64,000 bases of DNA from Clostridia bacterium (GCA_017521465.1 JAFXCN010000020.1:5797-69796); one strand, 5' to 3'. Positions 17,470 through 27,448 are shown, counted from the stretch's first letter. Program-made: numbers and translations. Notes: a model not told the origin generated them from the letters alone.

Positions 17470-20400
17470 ATGAAAAAGAAAATTATAATAAGCTTTATAT
17501 TGATATGTATAATTGTGGCGTTAATAGCCTTTTTTATACATAACCAAAATAATCATTCAATTGATACAAAATTTGTAAATTATCCTACATTTACAGTAAC
17601 AGCTACAAGCGAACATAACAATCTTATAGATATTGATACATCATTTAACTTGAAAGCAAGTGAGGGAACAACACTTGAATTAGTTCAATCTTGTTTTTCT
17701 ATTACGCCAAAAGTTGAATATGAAATAAATGAAATCTCAAAAGATTATTATGCCTTAACATTAAAAGAAGAATTGGAAGCAGATAAAATTTACAATATTG
17801 AATATAAGACGGATAAGGCGCCATATAAATGGTCATTTCAAACAGAAAAGAAATTTAATGTTGCAAACTTTTATCCAGGAAATAAAGAATATGTATTGCC
17901 ATCAACTGTAATTGAGATAGATTTTACATATATTCCAGATGACAATATTAGAGAATTTTTTGCTATTTCTCCAAATGTCGAAGGTAAATTCTTATTTGAT
18001 GAAAGAAGAATAAGATTTGTTCCAAATGGAAAGTTAGCGTTAGCCACTACATATGAAGTGACAATATTAGAAGGATATGGTAATAAAGAAAATGACGAAA
18101 AAACAACAGAACAATCATTTAGTTTTTCAACTACTATATCTGAAAAATATGGAACTATGTCAAATCTTAAAAAAATAGATTTTGATGCGGATAAATATGC
18201 TTTTGGTGAAAATCAAGATATTTATATCAGTCATTATAATTATTATGACGACAATATCACTAATTACAAAATAGCTATATATCAATATAAAAATTCTGTT
18301 GATTTTGTAGAGGATTTAATGGCCAAAGAAGTTTATGGTAATTATCCAGAATTAAAACCAGTAGACTTAACAAGATTGGATAAAATTGATGAAAAAGAAT
18401 TGCTAGCTACTGATGTTGTTGAATATGAATATTCGTGGAAAAAAGCTGTACCAATAGATGCTAATCTGTCAGAAGGATATTATATTGTTGTGATAACTAT
18501 TAATGGAATTGATTACTACATGCCGCTTCAAATAAACAATACTATTGCAGTTACACAATATTTTGATGATAGATTGATGGTGTGGGTTCATGATTTAAAA
18601 ACACAAAAACCATTTGCAAATGCAAAAATAAAGATTGATGATATAGACATGGGAGTGACGAATAAAGAAGGTTATTGCGTGCTAACTGGAATTGAACTTC
18701 CGGAAGATAAAGATTTATTAGTACAAATATATGCAGAAAACAGAACTACGATATATGATGTTATAACTTCTCATAATTATTGGTCGGGTGCAACGTCAGA
18801 ATATGATAATACATATATTAAATTTGATAGAGATACATTTAAGACGGGAGAGATACTTAATACTTGGGGATTTATAAAAGATAGACGAAACATTGAAACA
18901 AAAGAATGTACATTAACAATAAAATCATCTTCAGAAGGAGCTGTTTTTGAAGAAAGGAAAATTACACTTGATGAGTTTGGAACTTTTAAGGCTGCTTTTG
19001 ATTTAACTAATTATACAAGTGGTTCTTATTTTTTATCTGTCTATGCGAACGGAAACCAAACTAGTGAAAAATGGTTTGAAATAAGAGATTATGAAACAAA
19101 TTCTTATGATGTATCTATGTCGTTAGATAAGAAAAATGTAAGAGCTGGTGAAAAAATAACGTGTTCTTTAAATGTAAAGCTATTTGATGGAACACCATTA
19201 GAAAATATACGTTATAATGCCAAAATAGAAATGGGCGATAAAGTAACAACAAAAGAAATAACAACAGATGCAAATGGAGATGCAAGCTTCGAGATAGATA
19301 CATCAATATATTATACATATAACAATATTATATATGGTTATGTCCGTTTGACTCCAATTGGTATAGAAGATCAAAATTATCTTGCTAAATCTTTTTCAGT
19401 ATATCCTCATGAAGAAACCTTTGAGACAAATGGGAAATATATTGATAAAGAGAAAATGTATGAATTTAATATAGAAACTTATTATAATGATTACACTAAT
19501 ATGGATGAAGTGAAAAAAGGTGCATTAACAAATAGAACGGGAAAAGTAATGCTTACTAGATATAGAAAGGAAAAAGTGGTTACATCAACTTATTTTGATG
19601 AAAATACAAAAACAATGAAAGAAAACTATAAAATAGTTAAACACTTTGACGGATTTGAAGAACTTGAATACACAACTGTCGATGGAAAAGCTACTGTTAG
19701 ATATGCATCGCCATATGCTACAAGAGACGAAGGTGTAGTCGAATATACAGCATCGTTCTATTCTGAAAAGGATTGGAAAAATATAAGTGATAGATGGACA
19801 TATGTTAGTGAAGAATATGACGCTAACGAAAATCAAGTAGATTTCTTAATGAATAATTACTATCTAGATAGTGATGCGGAACCATATGGATGCAAAGTTG
19901 GACAAGAAATAAATTTGAAAGTTGTTAATGTTACTGATGATAAAACACCAGAAAATGTATATGTAATGTACGTTTTAAAATCTGCGAAAGGCACTGAAAT
20001 AATATACACAGATAAAGCTGAATATAAACTGAAATTTGAAAAAGAATTTGGAGCAGATATTACTATTGAGGGATTTGTATTTGATGGAACAACAATAAGA
20101 GCTTTAGGTGATTACTACTATGACACTCAATATAGATTTTCTCTTGCTGATGAAGAATTAGATATGCAAGTTGAAGTTGAGTTTGATAAAGAGCACTATA
20201 AACCAGGCGATACAGCTAAATTAAAAATCGTAACAAAAGTTGATGATAATCCTGTAAAAGCGGCGGTCAACTTAAGTGCAGTTAATAAGGAATACCTTGC
20301 AGCAAATCCGCAATATAATGGTGATATACTGTATGCATTGCATAATTATTATAATTTTTACATTAAAGCAGAAAGTTTCACTCATACAATACTTTCTTCA

Positions 20401-22236
20401 TCGTTTGAAGGTGGCGGTGGAGGCGGTGGCGATGGAGTTCGTATAGACTTTGCAACCACAGCATTATTTGACACTGTTTATACCGATGAAAATGGTGTTG
20501 CAGAATATGAAGTAAAACTTCCGGACAACATTACTACATGGAATTTGAATGTAGAAGCTACAACTAAAGATTATAGAGCTACATCTATAGATAAAGATAT
20601 TGTTGTTACCTTGCCATTCTTTTCAACTGCAGTTATGAATGAAAAATATTTGGTGGGAGAAACACCAAGTGTAAGCATTAGAAGTAATGGTACAGATGTA
20701 AAAACAGGTGATAAAGTTACATATGATGTGACTATAACGGATACAAATAATAAGATTACGAAATTTACTAAAGAATCTGAAATAGGAAAATATTTAAATA
20801 TTTCGTTGGGCAAACTTGAAAGGGGAGAATATACTCTTCTCGTGAAAGCTAGTTGTAATGGGTTGACAGATGCTTTCGAAAGAACTATAGAAGCGGTTAA
20901 CACTTTACAAGAAACAACAAATACAACACCATGTGATTTGATTAAAGGCGAAAAGATTAGTGTGGATAAGGGAAGCGGTGTAGTATATCTATATAACGCA
21001 GATATAGAAAAAATCTTTGATGATTTAGTGAAATTATCAATGTTACCAAGAGTTAGAAACGATCAAAAGGTTATATCATATATGACAGACAATCTTTGGA
21101 GAAAATTGCAAAATATAGATGCGCCAGCTGATAAGCCATATATAAATACATATAATGGAATAGAATTAATTGAAGATTTTTCGAATAAAGATTCATTATT
21201 AACAGCCAAAATTGTTTCGACAGGATATTTTGCAGAATCGAAATCACAAGATATCATAAAATATTTTAAAAATATTATTAAAAACGATGATATTGATATT
21301 AGAGAAAAACTATATGCATATTGGGGATTGGCAGCATTAAAAGAGCCAGTGTTAAATGATATAAAATTACTTGATTCAGAATTTGCATATATGGATAGTT
21401 ACGAAAAAGCTATAGTTGGTTTGGCATATGCTGATATAGGCGATTATGTGAGTGCAAACAAAATTTTTGATGAACTAATTTTGCTTGCTGATCAAGCGTC
21501 AAACGAAACATATGAGTATATAACAATGTTAGCATTTAAACTAAATAGGCAAGAAAGAGAAAACTTATATGATAAATATCTTTCGCTAAATAGAGAATCA
21601 GAATATTCGAATTTTGTAAAATTATTTAGAATACAAAACGAAGTGCAAAATAATGTTGAAGATGCGTATGTAAATTTAGAAGTAAATGGCGAAGAAAAGA
21701 AAATTGATATTAAAGGAATCAATATAGAAAGCTTTGCATTTACATATAAAGATGAGATAAAAATAAAAGACAAGAGCGACAATCTTCTTTCAAGATTTAG
21801 AAGAACAGAAGAAATAACTTCTAAAAATGCACCAAAAATAAATGCGATTTCGAAAACATATATAGTTAATGGTAAAGAAAGTAATACTTTTAAAATGGGA
21901 GATATGGTTACTGTTACAATAAAACTTGATTATAATGAATTGGCAAAAGAAAATATACCATATCTATATACGGTAGAAGATGTAATGCCAAACTGTTTCA
22001 AATATTCTTATGAAGAAGATTATGACTATGAACATTTAAAAGTAGATTCGCCATATAAAAAAGACGGACAAAAATTATATTTCTATGTTCATAAATGTAA
22101 CGAAGGTGAACAATACATCTCATATACTGCTATAGCAACTGCGAAAGGTGAATTCGTTTCAGATGGGGTAATACTTAAAAATACAGAAAACAAAGTAATA
22201 GATTATCACAAAATAGATAATATAATTGTAGAATAA
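17470..22236 (+). CDS. alpha-2-macroglobulin-family (MG-domain) giant protein, N-terminally membrane anchored
   Basis: 1588 aa with N-terminal TM. A2M-family signature FATTALFDTVYTDENG...LPDNITTWNLNVEATT...LPFFSTAVMNEKYLVGE. A run of 7 Gly precedes it. Confidence 0.6.
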   Translation: MKKKIIISFILICIIVALIAFFIHNQNNHSIDTKFVNYPTFTVTATSEHNNLIDIDTSFNLKASEGTTLELVQSCFSITPKVEYEINEISKDYYALTLKEELEADKIYNIEYKTDKAPYKWSFQTEKKFNVANFYPGNKEYVLPSTVIEIDFTYIPDDNIREFFAISPNVEGKFLFDERRIRFVPNGKLALATTYEVTILEGYGNKENDEKTTEQSFSFSTTISEKYGTMSNLKKIDFDADKYAFGENQDIYISHYNYYDDNITNYKIAIYQYKNSVDFVEDLMAKEVYGNYPELKPVDLTRLDKIDEKELLATDVVEYEYSWKKAVPIDANLSEGYYIVVITINGIDYYMPLQINNTIAVTQYFDDRLMVWVHDLKTQKPFANAKIKIDDIDMGVTNKEGYCVLTGIELPEDKDLLVQIYAENRTTIYDVITSHNYWSGATSEYDNTYIKFDRDTFKTGEILNTWGFIKDRRNIETKECTLTIKSSSEGAVFEERKITLDEFGTFKAAFDLTNYTSGSYFLSVYANGNQTSEKWFEIRDYETNSYDVSMSLDKKNVRAGEKITCSLNVKLFDGTPLENIRYNAKIEMGDKVTTKEITTDANGDASFEIDTSIYYTYNNIIYGYVRLTPIGIEDQNYLAKSFSVYPHEETFETNGKYIDKEKMYEFNIETYYNDYTNMDEVKKGALTNRTGKVMLTRYRKEKVVTSTYFDENTKTMKENYKIVKHFDGFEELEYTTVDGKATVRYASPYATRDEGVVEYTASFYSEKDWKNISDRWTYVSEEYDANENQVDFLMNNYYLDSDAEPYGCKVGQEINLKVVNVTDDKTPENVYVMYVLKSAKGTEIIYTDKAEYKLKFEKEFGADITIEGFVFDGTTIRALGDYYYDTQYRFSLADEELDMQVEVEFDKEHYKPGDTAKLKIVTKVDDNPVKAAVNLSAVNKEYLAANPQYNGDILYALHNYYNFYIKAESFTHTILSSSFEGGGGGGGDGVRIDFATTALFDTVYTDENGVAEYEVKLPDNITTWNLNVEATTKDYRATSIDKDIVVTLPFFSTAVMNEKYLVGETPSVSIRSNGTDVKTGDKVTYDVTITDTNNKITKFTKESEIGKYLNISLGKLERGEYTLLVKASCNGLTDAFERTIEAVNTLQETTNTTPCDLIKGEKISVDKGSGVVYLYNADIEKIFDDLVKLSMLPRVRNDQKVISYMTDNLWRKLQNIDAPADKPYINTYNGIELIEDFSNKDSLLTAKIVSTGYFAESKSQDIIKYFKNIIKNDDIDIREKLYAYWGLAALKEPVLNDIKLLDSEFAYMDSYEKAIVGLAYADIGDYVSANKIFDELILLADQASNETYEYITMLAFKLNRQERENLYDKYLSLNRESEYSNFVKLFRIQNEVQNNVEDAYVNLEVNGEEKKIDIKGINIESFAFTYKDEIKIKDKSDNLLSRFRRTEEITSKNAPKINAISKTYIVNGKESNTFKMGDMVTVTIKLDYNELAKENIPYLYTVEDVMPNCFKYSYEEDYDYEHLKVDSPYKKDGQKLYFYVHKCNEGEQYISYTAIATAKGEFVSDGVILKNTENKVIDYHKIDNIIVE

Positions 22237-22246
22237 TTGGAAAATA

Positions 22247-22285
22247 AAACCTGTTTGTATCGATTGATACATGCAGGTTTTTTAT
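22247..22285 (+). terminator. rho-independent terminator
   Basis: AAACCTG...CAGGTT followed by TTTTAT. Confidence 0.55.
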
Positions 22286-22536
22286 ATACTAGAAAGCTTA
22301 CTTTTTCTAGTATATAAAAACACTTATTTTAAGCGTGAGATTTTCTCTTTTTAGTCGAAAACTCACGAGGGTCGAAAGACAGAAAATGTACAATTTTCTG
22401 CCTTTTTTTGAATGTTACAAAAATGTTACATAACTATTACAGTTGTGTTAAAAATGGTTACATTTTGTTGAAGTTTGACGAGCCGTGTGTTATCTTATAA
22501 ATATATGTAACTATGTTATAAGGAGTGGATTGAATT
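22286..22536 (+). promoter_or_regulatory. regulatory region of the Tad-like operon: palindrome, attenuator-like hairpin, phased (T)GTTACA direct repeats, promoter
   Basis: TATACTAGAAA..TTTCTAGTATA palindrome (22286-22316). CAGAAAAT-GTACA-ATTTTCTG hairpin followed by T7 (22372-22402). GTTACA at 22410 and 22421, GGTTACA at 22467. TTGACG at 22485 with -10 TATAAA/TAAATA. Confidence 0.5.
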
Positions 22537-23862
22537 ATGATGTTAGTAGGACCTATGAAGAAAAAAATGGTAACAACGGTTATTCTTGTTGTTATTATAT
22601 TGACAGTAATATTTGGGGTTATAGGCTTTTTATTGTTGAGTGGTAAGCAAAATCAAATTGATGAATTAATGAAAAAAGCAGAGGTAGTAGAAAGATATGT
22701 GTTTACAGAGAACTTTCCTGCTGGTCACGTAATTGATGGTGATGATTTGACCTTAGCTGTTGTAAAAGCGGAGAGCACACCAGATAATTCATACAGTTTT
22801 CAAACTGTTGTAACTCCTGGCAATAGAGAGGAAATATACCAATATACAGGAACAACATACAAAACTGGTGAACTTGTAAATACGTTAGAGTTGCTTATAG
22901 GAAGAACATTAAAAATTAATGCATCAAGAAAAACAACATTAACTGATGAAATGCTTGTTCCAATCGATGAAACACCTTCAGACGATTTGAGACTTGAAGA
23001 ATTTACAATGATTAATCTTCCAAGTGATGCGGTTGATGGTGAATATATTGATGTTAGAATAATGTTCCCTACCGGTGAAGACTTTACAGTTTTACTTGGA
23101 AAGAAAATAGAAAAGTATACAGATAGTACAATTTTCTTAAAACTTACTGAAGATGAAATTTTAACTATGGGAAGTGCTATTGTTGAAGCTTATATGTATG
23201 AAGGAACAAAAATATATGCAACAAAATATGTAGATCCTTCTAATCAATTATATAGTTATAAAAAAATAGACTATGTTGCTAAATATAAGGCAGCTGTAGC
23301 TAGTTTGATAGAATCAAAAGAAGAAAAGAATCTTGAAGCGATTATTGAAAAATTCAGAACTGCTAGTCCAGAAGAATATGAAGCCTTATTAGCAGAATAT
23401 CCAGATACATATAGAGAAGAACTTGCAAAAAGACATTCAAATGAAATTAAAGTAATGGAAAGAGACGTTGAAATCAATGAGATTGCACAATACATTGGAT
23501 TGAACGAATATGAAACTGAAGAACTAAGAACAGCAATCGATGAAAAGAATGAAGATGTAATTTCAAAATATGAAAACAAAATTGTAACATCTAAGAAACA
23601 ATTAGCAAGAACTTATCCTGTAAAACCAGAAGTTTTATCTGTAATAAAATCTAATCCGAATATTCTAAAAGAAATTAAGGATACTTTTGATGTTACAGCT
23701 CAAATATCAGGCGAAGTTCAAAAATTTGATCCAACATTATATGGAGATGAAAATAGTATTCAAGAAGCATATGAAAAATATGTAGAAAACGTAAAAAATG
23801 AACTTCAAACACAAAAAGATGAAAGAGTAAAATATTTAAATTCATTAATTGCAGGAGAATAA
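22537..23862 (+). CDS. CpaB/RcpC-like pilus assembly protein with long C-terminal helical extension
   Basis: N-terminal TM. SAF-like segment VVERYVFTENFPAGHVIDGDDL. CpaB-like beta-rich region (YIDVRIMFPTGEDFTVLL). C-terminal 200 aa is a charged helical extension. Confidence 0.5.
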   Translation: MMLVGPMKKKMVTTVILVVIILTVIFGVIGFLLLSGKQNQIDELMKKAEVVERYVFTENFPAGHVIDGDDLTLAVVKAESTPDNSYSFQTVVTPGNREEIYQYTGTTYKTGELVNTLELLIGRTLKINASRKTTLTDEMLVPIDETPSDDLRLEEFTMINLPSDAVDGEYIDVRIMFPTGEDFTVLLGKKIEKYTDSTIFLKLTEDEILTMGSAIVEAYMYEGTKIYATKYVDPSNQLYSYKKIDYVAKYKAAVASLIESKEEKNLEAIIEKFRTASPEEYEALLAEYPDTYREELAKRHSNEIKVMERDVEINEIAQYIGLNEYETEELRTAIDEKNEDVISKYENKIVTSKKQLARTYPVKPEVLSVIKSNPNILKEIKDTFDVTAQISGEVQKFDPTLYGDENSIQEAYEKYVENVKNELQTQKDERVKYLNSLIAGE

Positions 23863-23874
23863 AAATAGGAGGAT

Positions 23875-24630
23875 ATGCAAATGAAAAGTATAGGATTTGT
23901 TGGCGAAATGGATAAAACAGGATTACTTTTATGCGTTGGAAAAATGATAGCCTCGCTAGGTGCAAAAGTAATGTTTGTTGATGCTACAAAAGCACAAAAA
24001 ACTAGATATGTAGTTCCACTTGTTATGGATAATGAAACACAAGAACAATATATTACACAACATGATGGAGTTGAAGTTGCTGTAGGATTTAACAATATAC
24101 TTGAGCTAAAAAAATACCTATTATCGAAAGGCGAAGATTTTTCAGAATATGAATATATCTTAATAGATAGTGATAATGAAGAAATGTGTGAAGAATATGA
24201 TATGAAAAGTGCAAACAAATTATTTTTTGTTACAACCTTTGACAAAATGCATTTGGCTAAAGGTTTAGAATTATTGAAATTTGTATGCGCATCAAAAAGA
24301 AGAGAAGATCCAAACGGTTCAGTTAATATTGAAAAAATATTATCATATACGCAAACGAATATTAAAGCAGTTGATGATAGATATATAGAAAGACTAACAG
24401 AAAACTTACCTATTAATTGGGCAACAGAAAAAATAGTTGTATCATATGACGAAGGTGATTTATCAGCCTTTATTCAAAATCAATACAGAAACAAAATAGA
24501 ATTTAGAGATATGACACCACAAACAAAAATAGGTATTATTGATGTTGTTTCTGTGGTTACAGGCGAAGAAAAAACAAGACTTAAAAAAGTTTTAAAAAGT
24601 ATTGAAAAAAATGCAAGATTTATTGGGTAA
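23875..24630 (+). CDS. ParA/MinD-fold protein with degenerate Walker A (TadZ/CpaE-like pseudo-ATPase)
   Basis: IGFVGEMDKTG occupies the place of the deviant Walker A KGGVGKTT. YILIDSD is Walker-B-like. Confidence 0.45.
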   Translation: MQMKSIGFVGEMDKTGLLLCVGKMIASLGAKVMFVDATKAQKTRYVVPLVMDNETQEQYITQHDGVEVAVGFNNILELKKYLLSKGEDFSEYEYILIDSDNEEMCEEYDMKSANKLFFVTTFDKMHLAKGLELLKFVCASKRREDPNGSVNIEKILSYTQTNIKAVDDRYIERLTENLPINWATEKIVVSYDEGDLSAFIQNQYRNKIEFRDMTPQTKIGIIDVVSVVTGEEKTRLKKVLKSIEKNARFIG

Positions 24631-24654
24631 TAGATTGAAAGGGGAGTAACAAAA

Positions 24655-25488
24655 ATGCCAATAGTATCATTTTGGAGTACAGTAGAATCTACTCAAACTT
24701 CTACAACATCTACTGCTGTAGCTGTAGCAAATGCTATAGCTACTAGACCAGATGTAGGATATAAAACACTATTAATGCAAACACACTATAATAATTTTGA
24801 TATGGAAACTTCTTATTACAACATGAATAAAATGTCTTCAAAAGGAAGTCTTGATATCGCAGATACAGGAATAGACGCGTTAGATAGATTGTTAAGAAGT
24901 AATAAATTAACACCTGAAAATATACCAAACTATGCAAAACCAGTTTTAAAAGGCAAATTAGAATTGCTTTATGGTACATTTAAAAATGATAGAGATTCAT
25001 ATGAAAGAGTCTTAGAAACAATGCCTATGATAGTCGACTATGCAAGTCAACTATATGACATGGTATTTGTAGATTTGAATAGAGGTTATGGTAATGCAGC
25101 TATGACCCAAATTCTTCAAAAATCTGATTTAATAGTTTTAACTATGAGCCAGAAAACAGAGGTATTGAAAAAATTATTTAAAGATGTAGAAGATTTAAAA
25201 ATCTTCAAAGAAAAACCAGTAATTTCAGTTATAGGTAGATATGATAGATTCTCAAAATATAATTCAAAGAATATTGCTAGAACATTTAACTATAAGAAAC
25301 CTATATACTGTATACCATACAATACACAATTCTTTGATGCTTGTAATGAAGGAAAAGCTTTGAATTTCTTCGTTGAAAATATGAATGCAGATATTGCAAC
25401 AGATAGAAATGGATATTTTATTTCAGAGGTAAATAAGATATCAAATCAAATTATGGAAGAATTAAAATCGAAATTAGTTGAAAGATAA
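24655..25488 (+). CDS. ParA/MinD-fold protein lacking a P-loop (second TadZ/CpaE-like)
   Basis: IVSFWSTVESTQTSTTSTAVAVANAIA replaces the P-loop. MVFVDLNRGYGN and LIVLTMSQ segments follow the ParA architecture. Confidence 0.45.
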   Translation: MPIVSFWSTVESTQTSTTSTAVAVANAIATRPDVGYKTLLMQTHYNNFDMETSYYNMNKMSSKGSLDIADTGIDALDRLLRSNKLTPENIPNYAKPVLKGKLELLYGTFKNDRDSYERVLETMPMIVDYASQLYDMVFVDLNRGYGNAAMTQILQKSDLIVLTMSQKTEVLKKLFKDVEDLKIFKEKPVISVIGRYDRFSKYNSKNIARTFNYKKPIYCIPYNTQFFDACNEGKALNFFVENMNADIATDRNGYFISEVNKISNQIMEELKSKLVER

Positions 25489-25512
25489 AATGAAAAGAGG
25501 TGATACTCTAAT

Positions 25513-27432
25513 ATGTTTATTAACTATACATTGATAGGCATTTTAATATTTGGTGCAATATTTTTCTTTGCATATATCTTCGTGAAAAAAGATAATACTA
25601 TGTTACCTAAAAACGAACGTGATAGCAGAATGTATACTGTTGAGCAAATGACTAAATTTATTAAAGCGAGACTTGACGAAATAACAAGAACAAACCTTTA
25701 CGATATAGGATTATCTGAAGAAGAATTGAAAAGAAGAAAAAGCAAAAAATATGAACTAAAGAAAGCCTTAAAAGGTTGTACATATGGAGATGTAAACGAT
25801 AAAAAATATATTAAAGAGTTGATATTTGATTTATTACATAGAGAATATGGAGTGAATCAAGTAAATATCACTAATGCTATAGATTTTGATAACGTTGATA
25901 AACTTACAACAATTGATAAGTTTGACATATTGTTATATATGTACAAATTACAATATGGATATAATGCATTAACAGAATTAATAGTGAAATATAACTTAGA
26001 TGATATAAAAACGGTATATGGTTCAACAACTCCATCATATGTAATTACGCCAGAAGAAATTGATGATATTTTTGAAAAAGAATATGATTATCTTTCTTTT
26101 GAAGATAGATTAAATATTTTATCTCAAAGAATATATCAAAATTATAAAGGATTTAGTGTAATTGATGAAATAAGAGATATGAACATAGATGGTATCTCTG
26201 GAGGTGTTTCTGGTCTTCCAGAATCATTTATGTATCAAGTTGCACAACTTGGTGATTATATTAAGCAAACTCAAGAAAAAACTATACCAAGAGCTTACGA
26301 TAGTGTATGGATTTTCTTTAGAGGTAAATCAATCCAAATGGCTTGTTTGTCATTTGGCTCATATGATGAATTAAAGAGAGTATGTCAAAATATTTATAAA
26401 TACAATAATCCAGGACAATTATCAGATACAAATGGATATAAGATTAATGAAATGAAAGACGGTTCCCGTGTCGTTGTTGTTAGACCAAGTATGTCTGAAT
26501 CATGGGCGTTCTTTGTAAGAAAGTTCGACACACCAAATGCCGTTCTTGAAAACTTGATCAAGCAACCAGGAAAAGAATTTGTAATACCAATGCTAAAATT
26601 CTTGGTAAAAGGTGCCAGAGTTACAGCTCTTACTGGTGAACAAGGTTGTGGTAAAACAACAATGCTTATGGCGATGATAAAATATATTTATCCAACTCTA
26701 AACATAAGAGTTCAAGAAACTGCATTCGAGTTACACTTAAGAAAAGTTTATCCAAATAGAAACATATTAACATTTAGAGAGACGGATACAGTTTCAGGAC
26801 AAGAAGGACTTGACCTTCAAAAGAAAACTGACGGTGCTGTTAACATCCTTGGAGAGGTTGCTACTGACGCGGTTGCTGCTTGGATGATTCAGATGGCCCA
26901 AGTTGCTTCAAAATTTACAATCTTTACTCACCATGCTAAAACATTTGAAAATTTAATACTATCTCTTCGTAACTCATTATTGAAGATTGGTATGTTTAAC
27001 AATGAAAAAGTTGCTGAAATACAGGTAGTAAACGTTATGAACTTCGAAGTACATCTAAAAAGAGGTTTCGATGGTTCGAGATTTATAGAAAGAATAACAG
27101 AATGTATTCCGATAAAGGAAAAAAATCCATATACATTTGATCACAGAAATGAAACAACATTAGAAGGGAAATTTGATAAATTTATGGATAATGCAACTCA
27201 CTATTTCCAAAAGATTACAGAAACAGAAACATTCAAAGCTGTTAATATAATTGAATTCCAAGATGGTGAGTATGTAATAAAAAATAGAATTTCAGATGAA
27301 AACATTGCATTAATGAAAGAAAACATGTCTGATGAAGACCAAAAGCTTTTCAAAGAATATTTGGATGAATATTTTGGTGGTGCAGGTGGTTATGTAGCTT
27401 CTAATACAAATAGAAGAATAGTAATTGATTAA
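25513..27432 (+). CDS. CpaF/TadA/VirB11-family secretion ATPase with N-terminal TM anchor and long N-domain
   Basis: Walker A TGEQGCGKTT. Asp/Glu boxes NILGEVATDAV. His box FTHHAKT. N-terminal hydrophobic segment LIGILIFGAIFFFAYIFV. Confidence 0.75.
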   Translation: MFINYTLIGILIFGAIFFFAYIFVKKDNTMLPKNERDSRMYTVEQMTKFIKARLDEITRTNLYDIGLSEEELKRRKSKKYELKKALKGCTYGDVNDKKYIKELIFDLLHREYGVNQVNITNAIDFDNVDKLTTIDKFDILLYMYKLQYGYNALTELIVKYNLDDIKTVYGSTTPSYVITPEEIDDIFEKEYDYLSFEDRLNILSQRIYQNYKGFSVIDEIRDMNIDGISGGVSGLPESFMYQVAQLGDYIKQTQEKTIPRAYDSVWIFFRGKSIQMACLSFGSYDELKRVCQNIYKYNNPGQLSDTNGYKINEMKDGSRVVVVRPSMSESWAFFVRKFDTPNAVLENLIKQPGKEFVIPMLKFLVKGARVTALTGEQGCGKTTMLMAMIKYIYPTLNIRVQETAFELHLRKVYPNRNILTFRETDTVSGQEGLDLQKKTDGAVNILGEVATDAVAAWMIQMAQVASKFTIFTHHAKTFENLILSLRNSLLKIGMFNNEKVAEIQVVNVMNFEVHLKRGFDGSRFIERITECIPIKEKNPYTFDHRNETTLEGKFDKFMDNATHYFQKITETETFKAVNIIEFQDGEYVIKNRISDENIALMKENMSDEDQKLFKEYLDEYFGGAGGYVASNTNRRIVID

Positions 27433-27448
27433 TTAAGGGAGGATTGAT

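What the first reader, a model, noticed from the sequence alone, without database searches (positions are those of the whole stretch)
22286..22536. Complex regulatory region upstream of the pilus-like operon with helically phased (T)GTTACA direct repeats
Between the A2M-like gene terminator and the operon there is a perfect 11+11 palindrome TATACTAGAAA..TTTCTAGTATA. There is also an AT-rich hairpin followed by T7 (attenuator or terminator). Three to four copies of (T)GTTACA lie 11-12 bp apart (22410, 22421, about 22433) plus one more at 22467, directly upstream of a TTGACG -35. Eleven-bp-phased direct repeats are typical of OmpR/PhoB- or LytTR-type response-regulator sites, which suggests signal-dependent control of the filament operon.
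Basis: seen in the sequence. Interest (0 to 1): 0.55.

Follow-up and report, generated by a model that had tools for sequence, protein, structure and literature searches.

The report
Conserved repeat array upstream of pilus operon
Four short DNA repeats, spaced exactly one helical turn apart in front of a Tad-like pilus operon of an uncultured gut Clostridia bacterium, are conserved across very distant relatives and look like the docking site of a two-component response regulator, whereas the neighbouring palindrome and hairpin are a recent, lineage-specific insertion.

Summary
T(G/A)TTACA sits at 22413, 22424 and 22435. A fourth in-phase unit, TGTTAAA, sits at 22446. All are exactly 11 bp apart.

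In 23 orthologous loci (CpaB-like protein 29-100% identical), 68 of 69 unit-to-unit intervals are 11 bp. The TTACA/TTAAA cores are invariant in units 2-4, while the 4-bp spacers vary freely.

The array lies 19-21 bp upstream of a conserved sigma-A-type promoter: TTGAAG 22468-73, a 17-nt spacer, TG 22488-89 and TATCTT 22491-96.

The palindrome (really 17+17) and the hairpin+T7 belong to a 126-bp insertion. It is found only in the window and a 98% relative, and it lies upstream of the promoter, so it cannot attenuate the operon.

No conserved RNA fold exists.

Similar arrays occur upstream of type IV pilus pilMN operons, ftsA and thiolase genes in other AT-rich contigs. They also occur at three pst-phoU-phoB loci.

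Best reading: a binding array for an OmpR/PhoB-family response regulator (WalR-, PhoP- or ArcA-like architecture) controlling the pilus promoter. The regulator itself is not identified. This is a new member of a known kind, of moderate interest.

The parts
17470..22236 (+). Upstream gene: a 1588-aa alpha-2-macroglobulin-like protein. Context only. It is syntenic in the 70-98% relatives but not in L001 or more distant loci.
   Evidence: Pfam MG2/A2M_BRD/A2M; synteny; a different upstream gene in L001.
22246..22283 (+). Terminator-like hairpin of the A2M-like gene (16-nt arms, 88% complementary) followed by a T-run. It is conserved in the 70% relatives, where it directly abuts the repeat array.
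   Evidence: Inverted repeat I2; fold; alignment with L021/L024.
22278..22403 (+). Lineage-specific insertion of about 126 bp. The exact borders are ambiguous within the flanking T-runs. It contains the 17+17 perfect palindrome (22279-95/22304-20), a second hairpin (22334-43/22358-67) and a third AU-rich hairpin (22375-87/22393-405) that runs into T7 (22403-09). It is not part of the conserved module. At most it acts as an extra terminator or insulator between the A2M-like gene and the pilus promoter.
   Evidence: Present only in the window and L026 (98% relative). Absent in L021, L024 (70%) and L001 (62%). Folds with z = -8.7 on either strand. No other copy in the window or loci. No Rfam family. 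No match in viral contigs.
22413..22419 (+). Repeat unit R1, TGTTACA. It lies about -90 to -84 relative to the predicted start at 22503. It is the least conserved of the four units.
   Evidence: Column statistics over 20 non-redundant loci: T 15/20, TTAC 18-20/20.
22424..22430 (+). Repeat unit R2, TGTTACA (about -79 to -73). The consensus T-R-T-T-A-C-A is invariant.
   Evidence: 20/20 at six of the seven positions, with G/A 10:10 at position 2. The R1-R2 interval is 11 bp in 23/23 loci.
22435..22441 (+). Repeat unit R3, TATTACA (about -68 to -62). It is usually followed by TTT in relatives.
   Evidence: TTACA 20/20. The R2-R3 interval is 11 bp in 22/23 loci.
22446..22452 (+). Repeat unit R4, TGTTAAA (about -57 to -51). 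This is the promoter-proximal variant unit, RTTAAA, which always has A where R1-R3 have C. It runs into an A-tract.
   Evidence: TTAAA 20/20. R3-R4 is 11 bp in 23/23 loci, and R4 to the -35 is 19-21 bp. TTAAA is also the commonest in-register pentamer after the last TTACA in unrelated low-GC arrays (8 of about 70).
22456..22462 (+). It is out of strict phase (10 bp after R4) and is not conserved.
   Evidence: GATTGCG, GGTTGCA and GATTGCA in L021, L024 and L001. Low information content in columns 22456-62.
22463..22473 (+). T-tract plus the conserved -35 hexamer TTGAAG (22468-73).
   Evidence: TTG 20/20, A 18/20, preceding TT 19/20.
22475..22480 (+). It lies inside the 17-nt spacer of the conserved promoter and is conserved only in the closest clade.
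   Evidence: Information content at or below 0.36 bits in columns 22474-83; alignment.
22488..22496 (+). Extended -10 element: TG (22488-89), one base, then TATCTT (22491-96). The consensus is TG-n-TA-n-n-n-T.
   Evidence: T 20/20, G 19/20, TA 20/20 and final T 20/20. The spacer to the -35 is 17 nt in 23/23 loci.
22503..22536 (+). Predicted 5' UTR of about 34 nt. The start near A22503 is inferred, not mapped. It has a strong Shine-Dalgarno sequence, AGGAGTGGA, at 22521-29.
   Evidence: Conserved T-A at 22502-03 (18-19/20), 6-7 nt after the -10. GGAG-GGA is invariant. No conserved RNA pairing.
22537..32923 (+). Tad-like pilus operon: CpaB-like (441 aa), two ParA/TadZ/CpaE-like (251 and 277 aa), CpaF/TadA-like ATPase (639 aa), large membrane protein (786 aa), four small pilin-like proteins (127-160 aa) and a 396-aa protein.
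   Evidence: CpaF structures 8rkd/9e24 at E = 1e-8. TIGR03177 CpaB and TadA-family ATPase, both weak. SAF domain named in homologues. Translations. Same architecture as the pilus cluster described for order TANB77 (PMC11680825, Table 1).

Best explanation
The conserved object is a sigma-A-type promoter with an upstream transcription-factor array.

Promoter: TTGAAG at 22468-73, a 17-nt spacer, TG-n-TATCTT at 22488-96, and a predicted start near 22503.

Array: four 7-bp direct repeats, T-R-T-T-A-C-A three times and then a proximal R-T-T-A-A-A. Each unit is followed by a variable 4-bp AT-rich spacer. All four therefore sit on one face of the helix, at about -90 to -51.

The most likely mechanism is that a winged-helix response regulator of the OmpR/PhoB family binds head-to-tail, as two dimers, to the four units. 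From there it controls RNA polymerase at the Tad-like pilus operon. Activation by an upstream (class I-like) contact is the more probable mode given the position.

Shown here: the repeats, their exact phasing, their deep conservation, the conserved promoter, the absence of a conserved RNA fold, and the occurrence of the same kind of array at other promoters and at pst-phoU-phoB loci.

Inferred: the family of the binding protein, the direction of regulation, the transcription start, and signal dependence.

The palindrome and hairpin+T7 block is a separate, recent 126-bp insertion upstream of the array. At most it adds a second terminator after the A2M-like gene.
For: 1. Phasing. Intervals of 11 bp in 68 of 69 unit pairs across 23 loci. 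The R4 to -35 distance is 19-21 bp. The -35/-10 spacer is 17 nt in 23/23 loci.

2. Footprint. The TTACA/TTAAA cores are 20/20 in R2-R4, while spacer columns carry about 0.1-0.6 bits. Conservation begins exactly at R1 even where the upstream gene differs.

3. Selection. The upstream 126 nt are 87-93% identical to relatives whose coding sequence is only 71-77% identical. The array persists at 29-33% protein identity (L020, L148, L149, L151).

4. Specificity. There is one array per locus in 219 kb of loci, and only one in the window plus 20 kb of flanks. 0.01 is expected by chance.

5. Not RNA. RNAalifold finds 0 conserved pairs over 20 sequences.

6. Family-level support.
- Among the first ~120 metagenome stretches that match the three-unit pattern, three are pst-phoU-phoB(-phoR) loci, from contigs of 31%, 40% and 45% G+C. 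In each, the array sits directly upstream of the phosphate-uptake genes, next to an OmpR-family regulator (L093, L094, L099).
- Published sites of this family have the same architecture. The B. subtilis PHO box is four TT(A/T/C)ACA-like units with 11-bp periodicity. In Lc. paracasei pstS there are four (T/A)T(T/G)ACA units on the coding strand (PMC11870197). ArcA uses ATGTTAAAAA direct repeats, 11 bp centre to centre, 2-5 per site (PMC4173790). The WalR consensus is TGTWAH-N5-TGTWAH (PMC9210968).
- The WalR consensus matches nowhere in the 64-kb window except at this array.

7. Regulon-like spread. 61 of 71 short arrays in low-GC contigs lie outside long open frames, against 21% of bases. They recur upstream of orthologous genes with divergent spacers: the pilMN type IV pilus operon 5 times, thiolase 4 times, ftsA twice.
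Against: - No response regulator or other transcription factor is encoded near the operon in the window, in 20 kb of flanks, or in any of the orthologous loci. The binding protein is unidentified and nothing was tested biochemically.
- The promoter has a good -35 and an extended -10, so it may not need an activator. The sign of regulation is open.
- The position (-90 to -51, with an intact -35) differs from classical PhoB/PhoP boxes, which overlap or replace the -35.
- R4 is invariably TTAAA rather than TTACA. A simple 'weaker copy' model does not explain that.
- The other low-GC contigs that carry arrays were not shown to come from the same lineage.
- No pst promoter from a Firmicutes-like contig appeared among the hits.
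Confidence: 0.6

Rival explanations
1. The array is a real protein-binding site, but for a DNA-binding protein outside the OmpR/PhoB family. Candidates include a LytTR regulator using alternate units, a ribbon-helix-helix or ring-forming protein that wraps phased repeats, or an abundant lineage-specific global regulator.
For: No regulator was identified. Arrays occur in front of very different genes: pili, ftsA, thiolase, a tRNA, yabG-like and tsaE. The invariant TTAAA in the proximal unit and the fixed polarity are not typical textbook features of response-regulator sites.
Against: The unit length, the AT-rich 4-bp spacer, the strict 11-bp period and the 2-5 copy number all match OmpR/PhoB-family sites. 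Three natural pst-phoU-phoB loci use the same heptamer array. LytTR sites are 9-bp repeats about 21 bp apart, which is not the conserved periodicity here.
Confidence: 0.2
2. There is no dedicated regulator. The phased units and their AT-rich spacers act as an intrinsically curved or UP-element-like upstream sequence that raises the activity of an already strong promoter.
For: The promoter is near-consensus (TTGAAG, 17 nt, TG-n-TAnnnT). R4 runs into an A-tract at about -54 to -48, where UP elements lie. The repeats are phased with the helix.
Against: The conserved bases are TTACA/TTAAA, including an invariant C. The A/T tracts in the spacers switch freely between A-rich and T-rich. The array is absent from all other promoters in 84 kb of the same genome, which is not expected of a generic promoter feature.
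Confidence: 0.08
3. The region works at the RNA level. The hairpin followed by T7 would be an attenuator or terminator, and the complementarity between the repeats (22415-32) and 22504-21 would form a leader structure that controls the operon.
For: Strong predicted folding of 22240-22412 (z = -8.7). There is an 18-nt, 78% complementary pair, 22415-32 / 22504-21, next to the ribosome-binding site.
Against: The hairpins lie in an insertion that is absent from all relatives below 98% identity. The insertion lies upstream of the conserved promoter. RNAalifold finds no conserved pair in 20 orthologous regions. No Rfam family matches. The long-range complementarity is not kept in distant relatives.
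Confidence: 0.03
4. The 126-bp insertion is itself a functional unit that modulates the operon in this lineage only. It could be a small RNA gene, or a palindromic operator for a repressor.
For: A perfect 17+17 palindrome, three stable hairpins ending in a U-run, and two GTCGAAA motifs 17 bp apart that resemble Spo0A boxes (the resemblance is from memory). The insertion is identical in L026.
Against: No promoter-like site was predicted within it on the + strand. There is no second copy or homologue anywhere searched and no Rfam match. Only two near-identical genomes carry it, so conservation says nothing.
Confidence: 0.1

Closest known systems
Firmicute PHO boxes (B. subtilis PhoP: four TT(A/T/C)ACA-like units with 11-bp periodicity; Lacticaseibacillus paracasei pstS: four (T/A)T(T/G)ACA units)
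   Same: Four direct units, an 11-bp period, a TTACA-type core read on the coding strand, and AT-rich spacers (PMC11870197; window). Metagenomic pst-phoU-phoB loci L093, L094 and L099 carry the same heptamers. In those three loci, however, it is the complement TGTAAYA that reads toward the pst genes, which is the opposite polarity to the window.
   Different: The first position is G/A here rather than T. The array lies at about -90 to -51, upstream of an intact -35, rather than overlapping it. The target is a pilus operon, not a phosphate-uptake gene. The proximal unit is fixed as TTAAA. No pst promoter of a related Firmicute was recovered.
WalR/VicR (YycF) binding site, TGTWAH-N5-TGTWAH
   Same: Read on the bottom strand, R1-R3 are TGTAAC/TGTAAT with a 5-bp gap, which is a 6/6 match per unit. 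The only matches to this consensus in the 64-kb window are at the array (consensus from PMC9210968). ftsA promoters in other low-GC contigs carry the array. ftsAZ being a WalR target in B. subtilis is recalled from memory.
   Different: WalR sites are usually two units, whereas here there are four with fixed polarity. R4 reads TTTAAY, not TGTWAH. No cell-wall hydrolase genes were seen among the array-bearing promoters. The presence of walRK in these genomes was not checked.
E. coli ArcA multi-direct-repeat sites (ATGTTAAAAA, 11 bp centre to centre, 2-5 repeats)
   Same: A TGTTA core on the top strand, a strict 11-bp spacing, 3-4 repeats that extend the footprint cooperatively, and R4 (GTGTTAAAAA) matching the ArcA unit at 9 of 10 positions (PMC4173790).
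   Different: ArcA is a gammaproteobacterial repressor whose sites usually overlap the promoter. Here the organism is a Clostridia bacterium and the site is upstream of the -35. Units 1-3 have C at position 6, which the ArcA weight matrix strongly disfavours in the icdA example.
Pilus gene cluster conserved in order TANB77 (Nat Commun 2024, PMC11680825)
   Same: The same gene order and sizes: CpaB-like, TadZ-like, CpaE-like, a roughly 640-aa TadA/CpaF-like ATPase, a TadC-TadB fusion, then several small pilin-like genes (compared).
   Different: That paper only predicted promoters with a neural network and describes no repeat array or regulator. Whether the window's organism belongs to TANB77 was not established here.
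LytTR-type regulator sites (AgrA/ComE-like)
   Same: Direct repeats immediately upstream of a -35. ACAGTTGTG at 22439-47 resembles an AgrA box (the resemblance is from memory).
   Different: LytTR sites are two 9-bp repeats about 21 bp apart. Here the conserved unit is 7 bp every 11 bp, and the bases following TTACA are not conserved as a 9-mer.

Membership tests
OmpR/PhoB-family response-regulator binding array | Direct (head-to-tail) rather than inverted repeats | tested here: met
   All four units have the same orientation in 23 loci. No conserved inverted partner was found.
OmpR/PhoB-family response-regulator binding array | One unit per helical turn (10-11 bp centre to centre) | tested here: met
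   11 bp in 68 of 69 intervals.
OmpR/PhoB-family response-regulator binding array | A conserved 5-7 bp core (major-groove contact) alternating with a non-conserved AT-rich spacer (minor groove) | tested here: met
   Per-column information: the T-R-T-T-A-C-A core is high and the 4-bp spacers are low.
OmpR/PhoB-family response-regulator binding array | Bound by a regulator that has a receiver domain plus a Trans_reg_C winged helix | not testable with these tools
   No regulator gene lies near the operon. There is only indirect support, from three pst-phoU-phoB loci that carry the same array next to such regulators.
OmpR/PhoB-family response-regulator binding array | The array sits at or upstream of the promoter of the regulated gene, in phase with it | tested here: met
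   R4 to the -35 is 19-21 bp, with a 17-nt spacer in 23/23 loci. The transcription start itself was not mapped.
Firmicute PHO box (PhoP) | Hexamer TT(A/T/C)ACA | tested here: inconclusive
   Units read (G/A)TTACA, which is 5 of 6. Position 1 is never T in R2, and is T in only 3/20 in R3.
Firmicute PHO box (PhoP) | The core binding region overlaps or replaces the -35, and the targets are phosphate-starvation genes | tested here: not met
   The array ends about 15 bp upstream of an intact TTGAAG -35. The target is a pilus operon. No pst gene lies in the window or flanks.
WalR/VicR box | TGTWAH-N5-TGTWAH | tested here: met
   Two bottom-strand matches and one top-strand match, all at the array. 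They are the only matches in the window, where 1.17 per window is expected.
WalR/VicR box | A walRK system is present, and the targets are cell-envelope or division genes | not tested
ftsA and sepF-like promoters carry arrays in other contigs of unknown relationship.
LytTR regulator site | Two 9-bp direct repeats separated by 12-13 bp | tested here: not met
   The conserved period is 11 bp with 7-bp units, and there are four units.
Transcription attenuator / intrinsic terminator in the operon leader (hairpin + T7) | Lies between the promoter and the gene, and is conserved with the operon | tested here: not met
   The hairpin (22375-405) is upstream of the conserved promoter (22468-96). It is absent from all relatives except a 98% one. 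The terminator scan does not call it, because it has too few G-C pairs.
Known RNA family (Rfam) | A match reaching the gathering score | tested here: not met
   The best hits are 10-20 bits, against gathering scores of 40-90.

The most novel reading that the evidence does not exclude
A single, still unidentified OmpR/PhoB-type regulator of AT-rich uncultured gut Clostridia (the TANB77-like lineages) uses a polar array, TTACA three times followed by TTAAA. With it, the regulator co-ordinates two different surface-filament machines, the Tad-like pilus and a type IVa pilMN pilus, together with division genes (ftsA, sepF-like) and thiolase. This would define a previously undescribed 'filament/envelope' regulon. 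It would also give a direct handle on when the immunologically relevant TANB77 pilus is expressed.
Probability: 0.2. Interest if true: 0.65.

Novelty: new member of a known kind. Interest (0 to 1): 0.48.

Why it matters
The operon is of the same type as the pilus cluster reported as conserved in the uncultured gut order TANB77. A pilin-like protein from that cluster was linked to the response to cancer immunotherapy (PMC11680825). Nothing is known about how the cluster is regulated, and the organisms are uncultured.

This work supplies three things:
- a deeply conserved promoter with a precise transcription-factor array, giving concrete sequences for reporter, EMSA and DAP-seq work;
- a weight matrix to define the regulon in complete genomes;
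- a way to find the cognate regulator by phylogenetic profiling.

It also corrects the anatomy. The eye-catching palindrome and hairpin are a recent insertion and should not be used to infer regulation.

Tried and rejected
- Rfam scan of 21900-22900 at E up to 10: only noise.
- The promoter/terminator consensus scan missed both the conserved promoter and the hairpins. Their hexamers and stems are off-consensus for that tool.
- blastn of 21500-24000 against plasmids and phages: no match. This is a chromosomal locus of an uncultured bacterium.
None lies near the operon.
- RNA-structure hypothesis: RNAalifold gave 0 pairs. Rejected.
- Insertion as a repeated mobile element: no second copy in the window or loci and none in viral contigs.
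- GTCGAAA (Spo0A-box-like): not enriched in the window overall.
- Extending the genome by 10 kb on each side: no further arrays and no regulators.
- Attempt to tie the pilMN-bearing contigs to the window's lineage: the homologue search and the cluster look-up gave abundance but no usable taxonomy.
- Literature searches for the exact motif with 'response regulator' or 'Clostridium': nothing.
- TnrA/GlnR (TGTNA-N7-TNACA), cre and Rex palindromes were compared by eye. They do not fit the register, or they are inverted repeats.
- A divergent promoter formed by the reverse complement of R4 and R2 (reported at 22451 to 22423) was rejected, because no conserved gene lies upstream and R1/R3 would be left unexplained.

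Full report
**The observation**

Several coordinates are slightly off.
- TGTTACA lies at 22413-19 and 22424-30, and TATTACA at 22435-41.
- A fourth unit in the same register, TGTTAAA, lies at 22446-52.
- GGTTACA lies at 22456-62, not 22467.
- The palindrome is 17+17 nt and perfect (22279-95 / 22304-20).
- An AU-rich hairpin (22375-87 / 22393-405) runs into T7 at 22403-09.
- TTGACG is at 22475-80.

The array is far from chance. The three-unit pattern, allowing up to two mismatches, occurs only here in 64 kb, against 0.01 expected.

**Context**

The window comes from an uncultured Clostridia MAG (31% G+C). The operon at 22537-32923 encodes, in order:
- a CpaB-like SAF-domain protein;
- two ParA/TadZ/CpaE-like proteins;
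- a CpaF/TadA-like ATPase (PDB CpaF, E = 1e-8; TadA-family model);
- a large polytopic membrane protein;
- four small proteins with a single N-terminal hydrophobic helix.

This is the same architecture as the pilus cluster reported as conserved in the uncultured gut order TANB77 (PMC11680825, Table 1). That paper predicted promoters only with a neural network and does not describe any repeat element. Whether the window's organism is itself a TANB77 member was not established.

**Comparative test**

I collected 26 orthologous loci: 20 by a pattern/tblastn scan of one genome per species and 6 by exact look-up of close homologues. Three more distant loci were added later. Three results follow.

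First, the palindrome and the two following hairpins are a 126-bp insertion.
- They are present, base for base, in a 98%-identical relative (L026).
- They are absent from the 70% relatives (L021, L024), where the A2M-gene terminator directly abuts the first repeat.
- They are also absent from the 62% relative L001, which has a different upstream gene.
- The insertion has no other copy in the window or the loci, no Rfam match and no match in viral contigs.
- It lies upstream of the promoter, so it cannot attenuate the operon. At most it adds a second terminator behind the A2M-like gene.

Second, the repeats are conserved to a striking degree.
- In a MAFFT alignment of 23 upstream regions, conservation starts exactly at the first unit.
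- Over 20 non-redundant sequences, T-R-T-T-A-C-A is invariant in unit 2, TTACA is invariant in unit 3, and RTTAAA is invariant in unit 4. The 4-bp spacers carry almost no information.
- Unit-to-unit spacing is 11 bp in 68 of 69 intervals.
- The 126 nt upstream of the start codon are 87-93% identical to relatives whose coding sequence is only 71-77% identical.
- Recognisable phased units persist even where the CpaB-like protein is 29-33% identical (L020, L148, L149, L151).
- The copy at 22456-62 is not conserved.

- The invariant elements are TTG(A) at 22468-71 (hexamer TTGAAG) and TG-n-TA-n-n-n-T at 22488-96. The spacer is 17 nt in 23 of 23 loci, and R4 lies 19-21 bp upstream of the -35.
- TTGACG falls inside the spacer and is replaced by unrelated sequence in distant relatives.
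- A conserved T-A at 22502-03 suggests a start near 22503. That would give a leader of about 34 nt with an invariant GGAG-GGA ribosome-binding site.
- Relative to that inferred start, the four units lie at about -90 to -51, all on one helical face.

**RNA alternative**

RNAalifold on 20 orthologous regions predicts no conserved base pair. The 18-nt complementarity between the repeats and the sequence next to the ribosome-binding site is confined to the closest clade. The conserved block is therefore a DNA element.

**What binds it**

No transcription factor is encoded near the operon in the window, in 20 kb of extra flank, or in any orthologous locus. The array is the only one in about 84 kb of this genome, so it is not a generic promoter feature.

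To look for other places that use it, I scanned the metagenome collection for three exact units. None of them was this operon. The hits fall into three groups.
- **Long tandem 11-bp arrays.** These look like satellites or iterons.
- **Short arrays in low-GC contigs.** 61 of 71 lie outside long open frames, although only 21% of bases do. They recur upstream of orthologous genes with divergent spacers:
  - a PilM-PilN fusion gene heading a type IV pilus operon with pilin and prepilin peptidase, 5 times;
  - thiolase, 4 times;
  - ftsA, twice;
  - single cases: a tRNA, yabG-like, tsaE, an ATP-cone protein, LemA and PrgI.
  - In these arrays the commonest in-register pentamer after the last TTACA is again TTAAA.
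- **Three pst-phoU-phoB(-phoR) loci** from contigs of 31%, 40% and 45% G+C. The same heptamers (TGTAACA/TGTAATA on the pst coding strand) sit directly upstream of the phosphate-uptake genes, next to an OmpR-family regulator (L093, L094, L099).

The third group shows that arrays of this kind occur in nature beside the genes of PhoB-type regulators.

**Comparison with published sites**
- The B. subtilis PHO box is four TT(A/T/C)ACA-like units with 11-bp periodicity. Lc. paracasei pstS has four (T/A)T(T/G)ACA units on the coding strand (PMC11870197).
- ArcA binds ATGTTAAAAA direct repeats 11 bp centre to centre, with 2-5 repeats per site and strict spacing (PMC4173790). R4 here matches that unit at 9 of 10 positions.
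- WalR binds TGTWAH-N5-TGTWAH (PMC9210968). On the bottom strand R1-R3 fit this 6/6, and the array holds the only matches to that consensus in the whole window.
- LytTR sites (two 9-bp repeats about 21 bp apart) do not fit the conserved 7-bp unit and 11-bp period.

From memory only: SaeR (GTTAA-N6-GTTAA), RstA, CpxR and CtrA (TTAA-N7-TTAA, which activates the Caulobacter pilin gene) show the same logic.

**Mechanism proposed**

A winged-helix response regulator of the OmpR/PhoB family binds head-to-tail to the four units, probably as two dimers. It acts on RNA polymerase at the conserved sigma-A promoter, most likely by an upstream (class I-type) contact, since the array ends about 15 bp before an intact -35.

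Steps shown here:
- the element, its phasing and its conservation;
- the promoter;
- the absence of a conserved RNA structure;
- natural use of the same array next to PhoB-type regulator genes.

Steps inferred:
- the protein family;
- activation rather than repression (the promoter looks strong on its own);
- the transcription start;
- dependence on a signal.

Which regulator is involved is unresolved. By sequence the best fit is WalR-like. By architecture it is the Firmicute PHO box or ArcA. It fails the PhoP criteria of position and target. The fixed TTAAA in the proximal unit is unexplained.

**Verdict**

The rest of the 'complex regulatory region' does not: it is an insertion plus a mis-assigned -35.

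The element is a new member of a known kind. Its value lies in its depth of conservation in an uncultured lineage, and in giving a concrete entry point to the regulation of a pilus cluster of current biomedical interest.

Noticed in passing
window 22278-22403: A 126-bp insertion, found only in this lineage and L026. It is made of three stable hairpins, including a perfect 17+17 palindrome. It also has two GTCGAAA motifs 17 bp apart (22354, 22371) that resemble Spo0A boxes (the resemblance is from memory). Its origin is unknown and no other copy was found.
   Followed up: partly
L035 (array rc 234-263), L077 3675-3703, L110 4167-4196, L117 1020-1048, L120 (rc 917-946): The same TTACA x3 (+TTAAA) array sits next to a TTGAC-type promoter upstream of a PilM-PilN fusion gene. 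That gene heads a type IV pilus operon (PilO-like, pilin, prepilin peptidase, minor pilins in L110). The protein family is very abundant in gut metagenomes (5600 hits).
   Followed up: partly
L093 8536-8565; L094 7430-7459; L099 4923-4952: Three pst-phoU-phoB(-phoR) loci, from contigs of 31%, 40% and 45% G+C, carry 3-4 phased TGTAACA/TGTAATA units directly upstream of the phosphate-uptake genes. These are apparently natural PHO boxes built from the same heptamer.
   Followed up: partly
L050 2910-3220; L053 350-411; L121/L143; L140; L036; L112; L132: Long tandem arrays (7 to more than 30 copies) of 11-bp units containing TGTTACA or TATTACA. They look like satellites or iterons and are unrelated to the operon.
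   Followed up: no
L086 and L087 (ftsA); L029, L039, L134, L065 (thiolase); L133 (tRNA); L104 (SepF-like, not confirmed by Pfam): Phased TTACA arrays lie upstream of division, butyrate-pathway and tRNA genes in low-GC contigs of unknown relationship to the window. In the ftsA promoters the fourth unit position coincides with the -35.
   Followed up: partly
window 29859-29907: An intergenic region lies upstream of the first pilin-like gene. An 11-nt inverted repeat (TTTTCTAATAG / CTATTAGAAAA) flanks a perfect TATAAT (29884-89). This may be an internal, operator-flanked promoter for the pilin genes. It contains no TTACA array.
   Followed up: no
window 22502-22545 and the orthologous loci: The leader and the first codons are almost invariant across the family: ..TAGAGGAGAGGATTATATTATG ATG TTA GGA CC.., with N-terminus M-(M)-L-(V)-G-P-M-K-K-K. 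This is more than a ribosome-binding site alone would require.
   Followed up: no
window 22451-22423 (- strand): The reverse complements of R4 and R2 (TTAACA, 17 nt, TAACAT) mimic a sigma-70 promoter pointing away from the operon. This is probably a by-product of the repeats, since no conserved gene lies in that direction.
   Followed up: partly
window 17470-22236 and L021-L026: The large A2M-like gene is syntenic with the pilus operon in the 70-98% relatives, but not in L001 or more distant loci. A functional link to the pilus was not examined.
   Followed up: no
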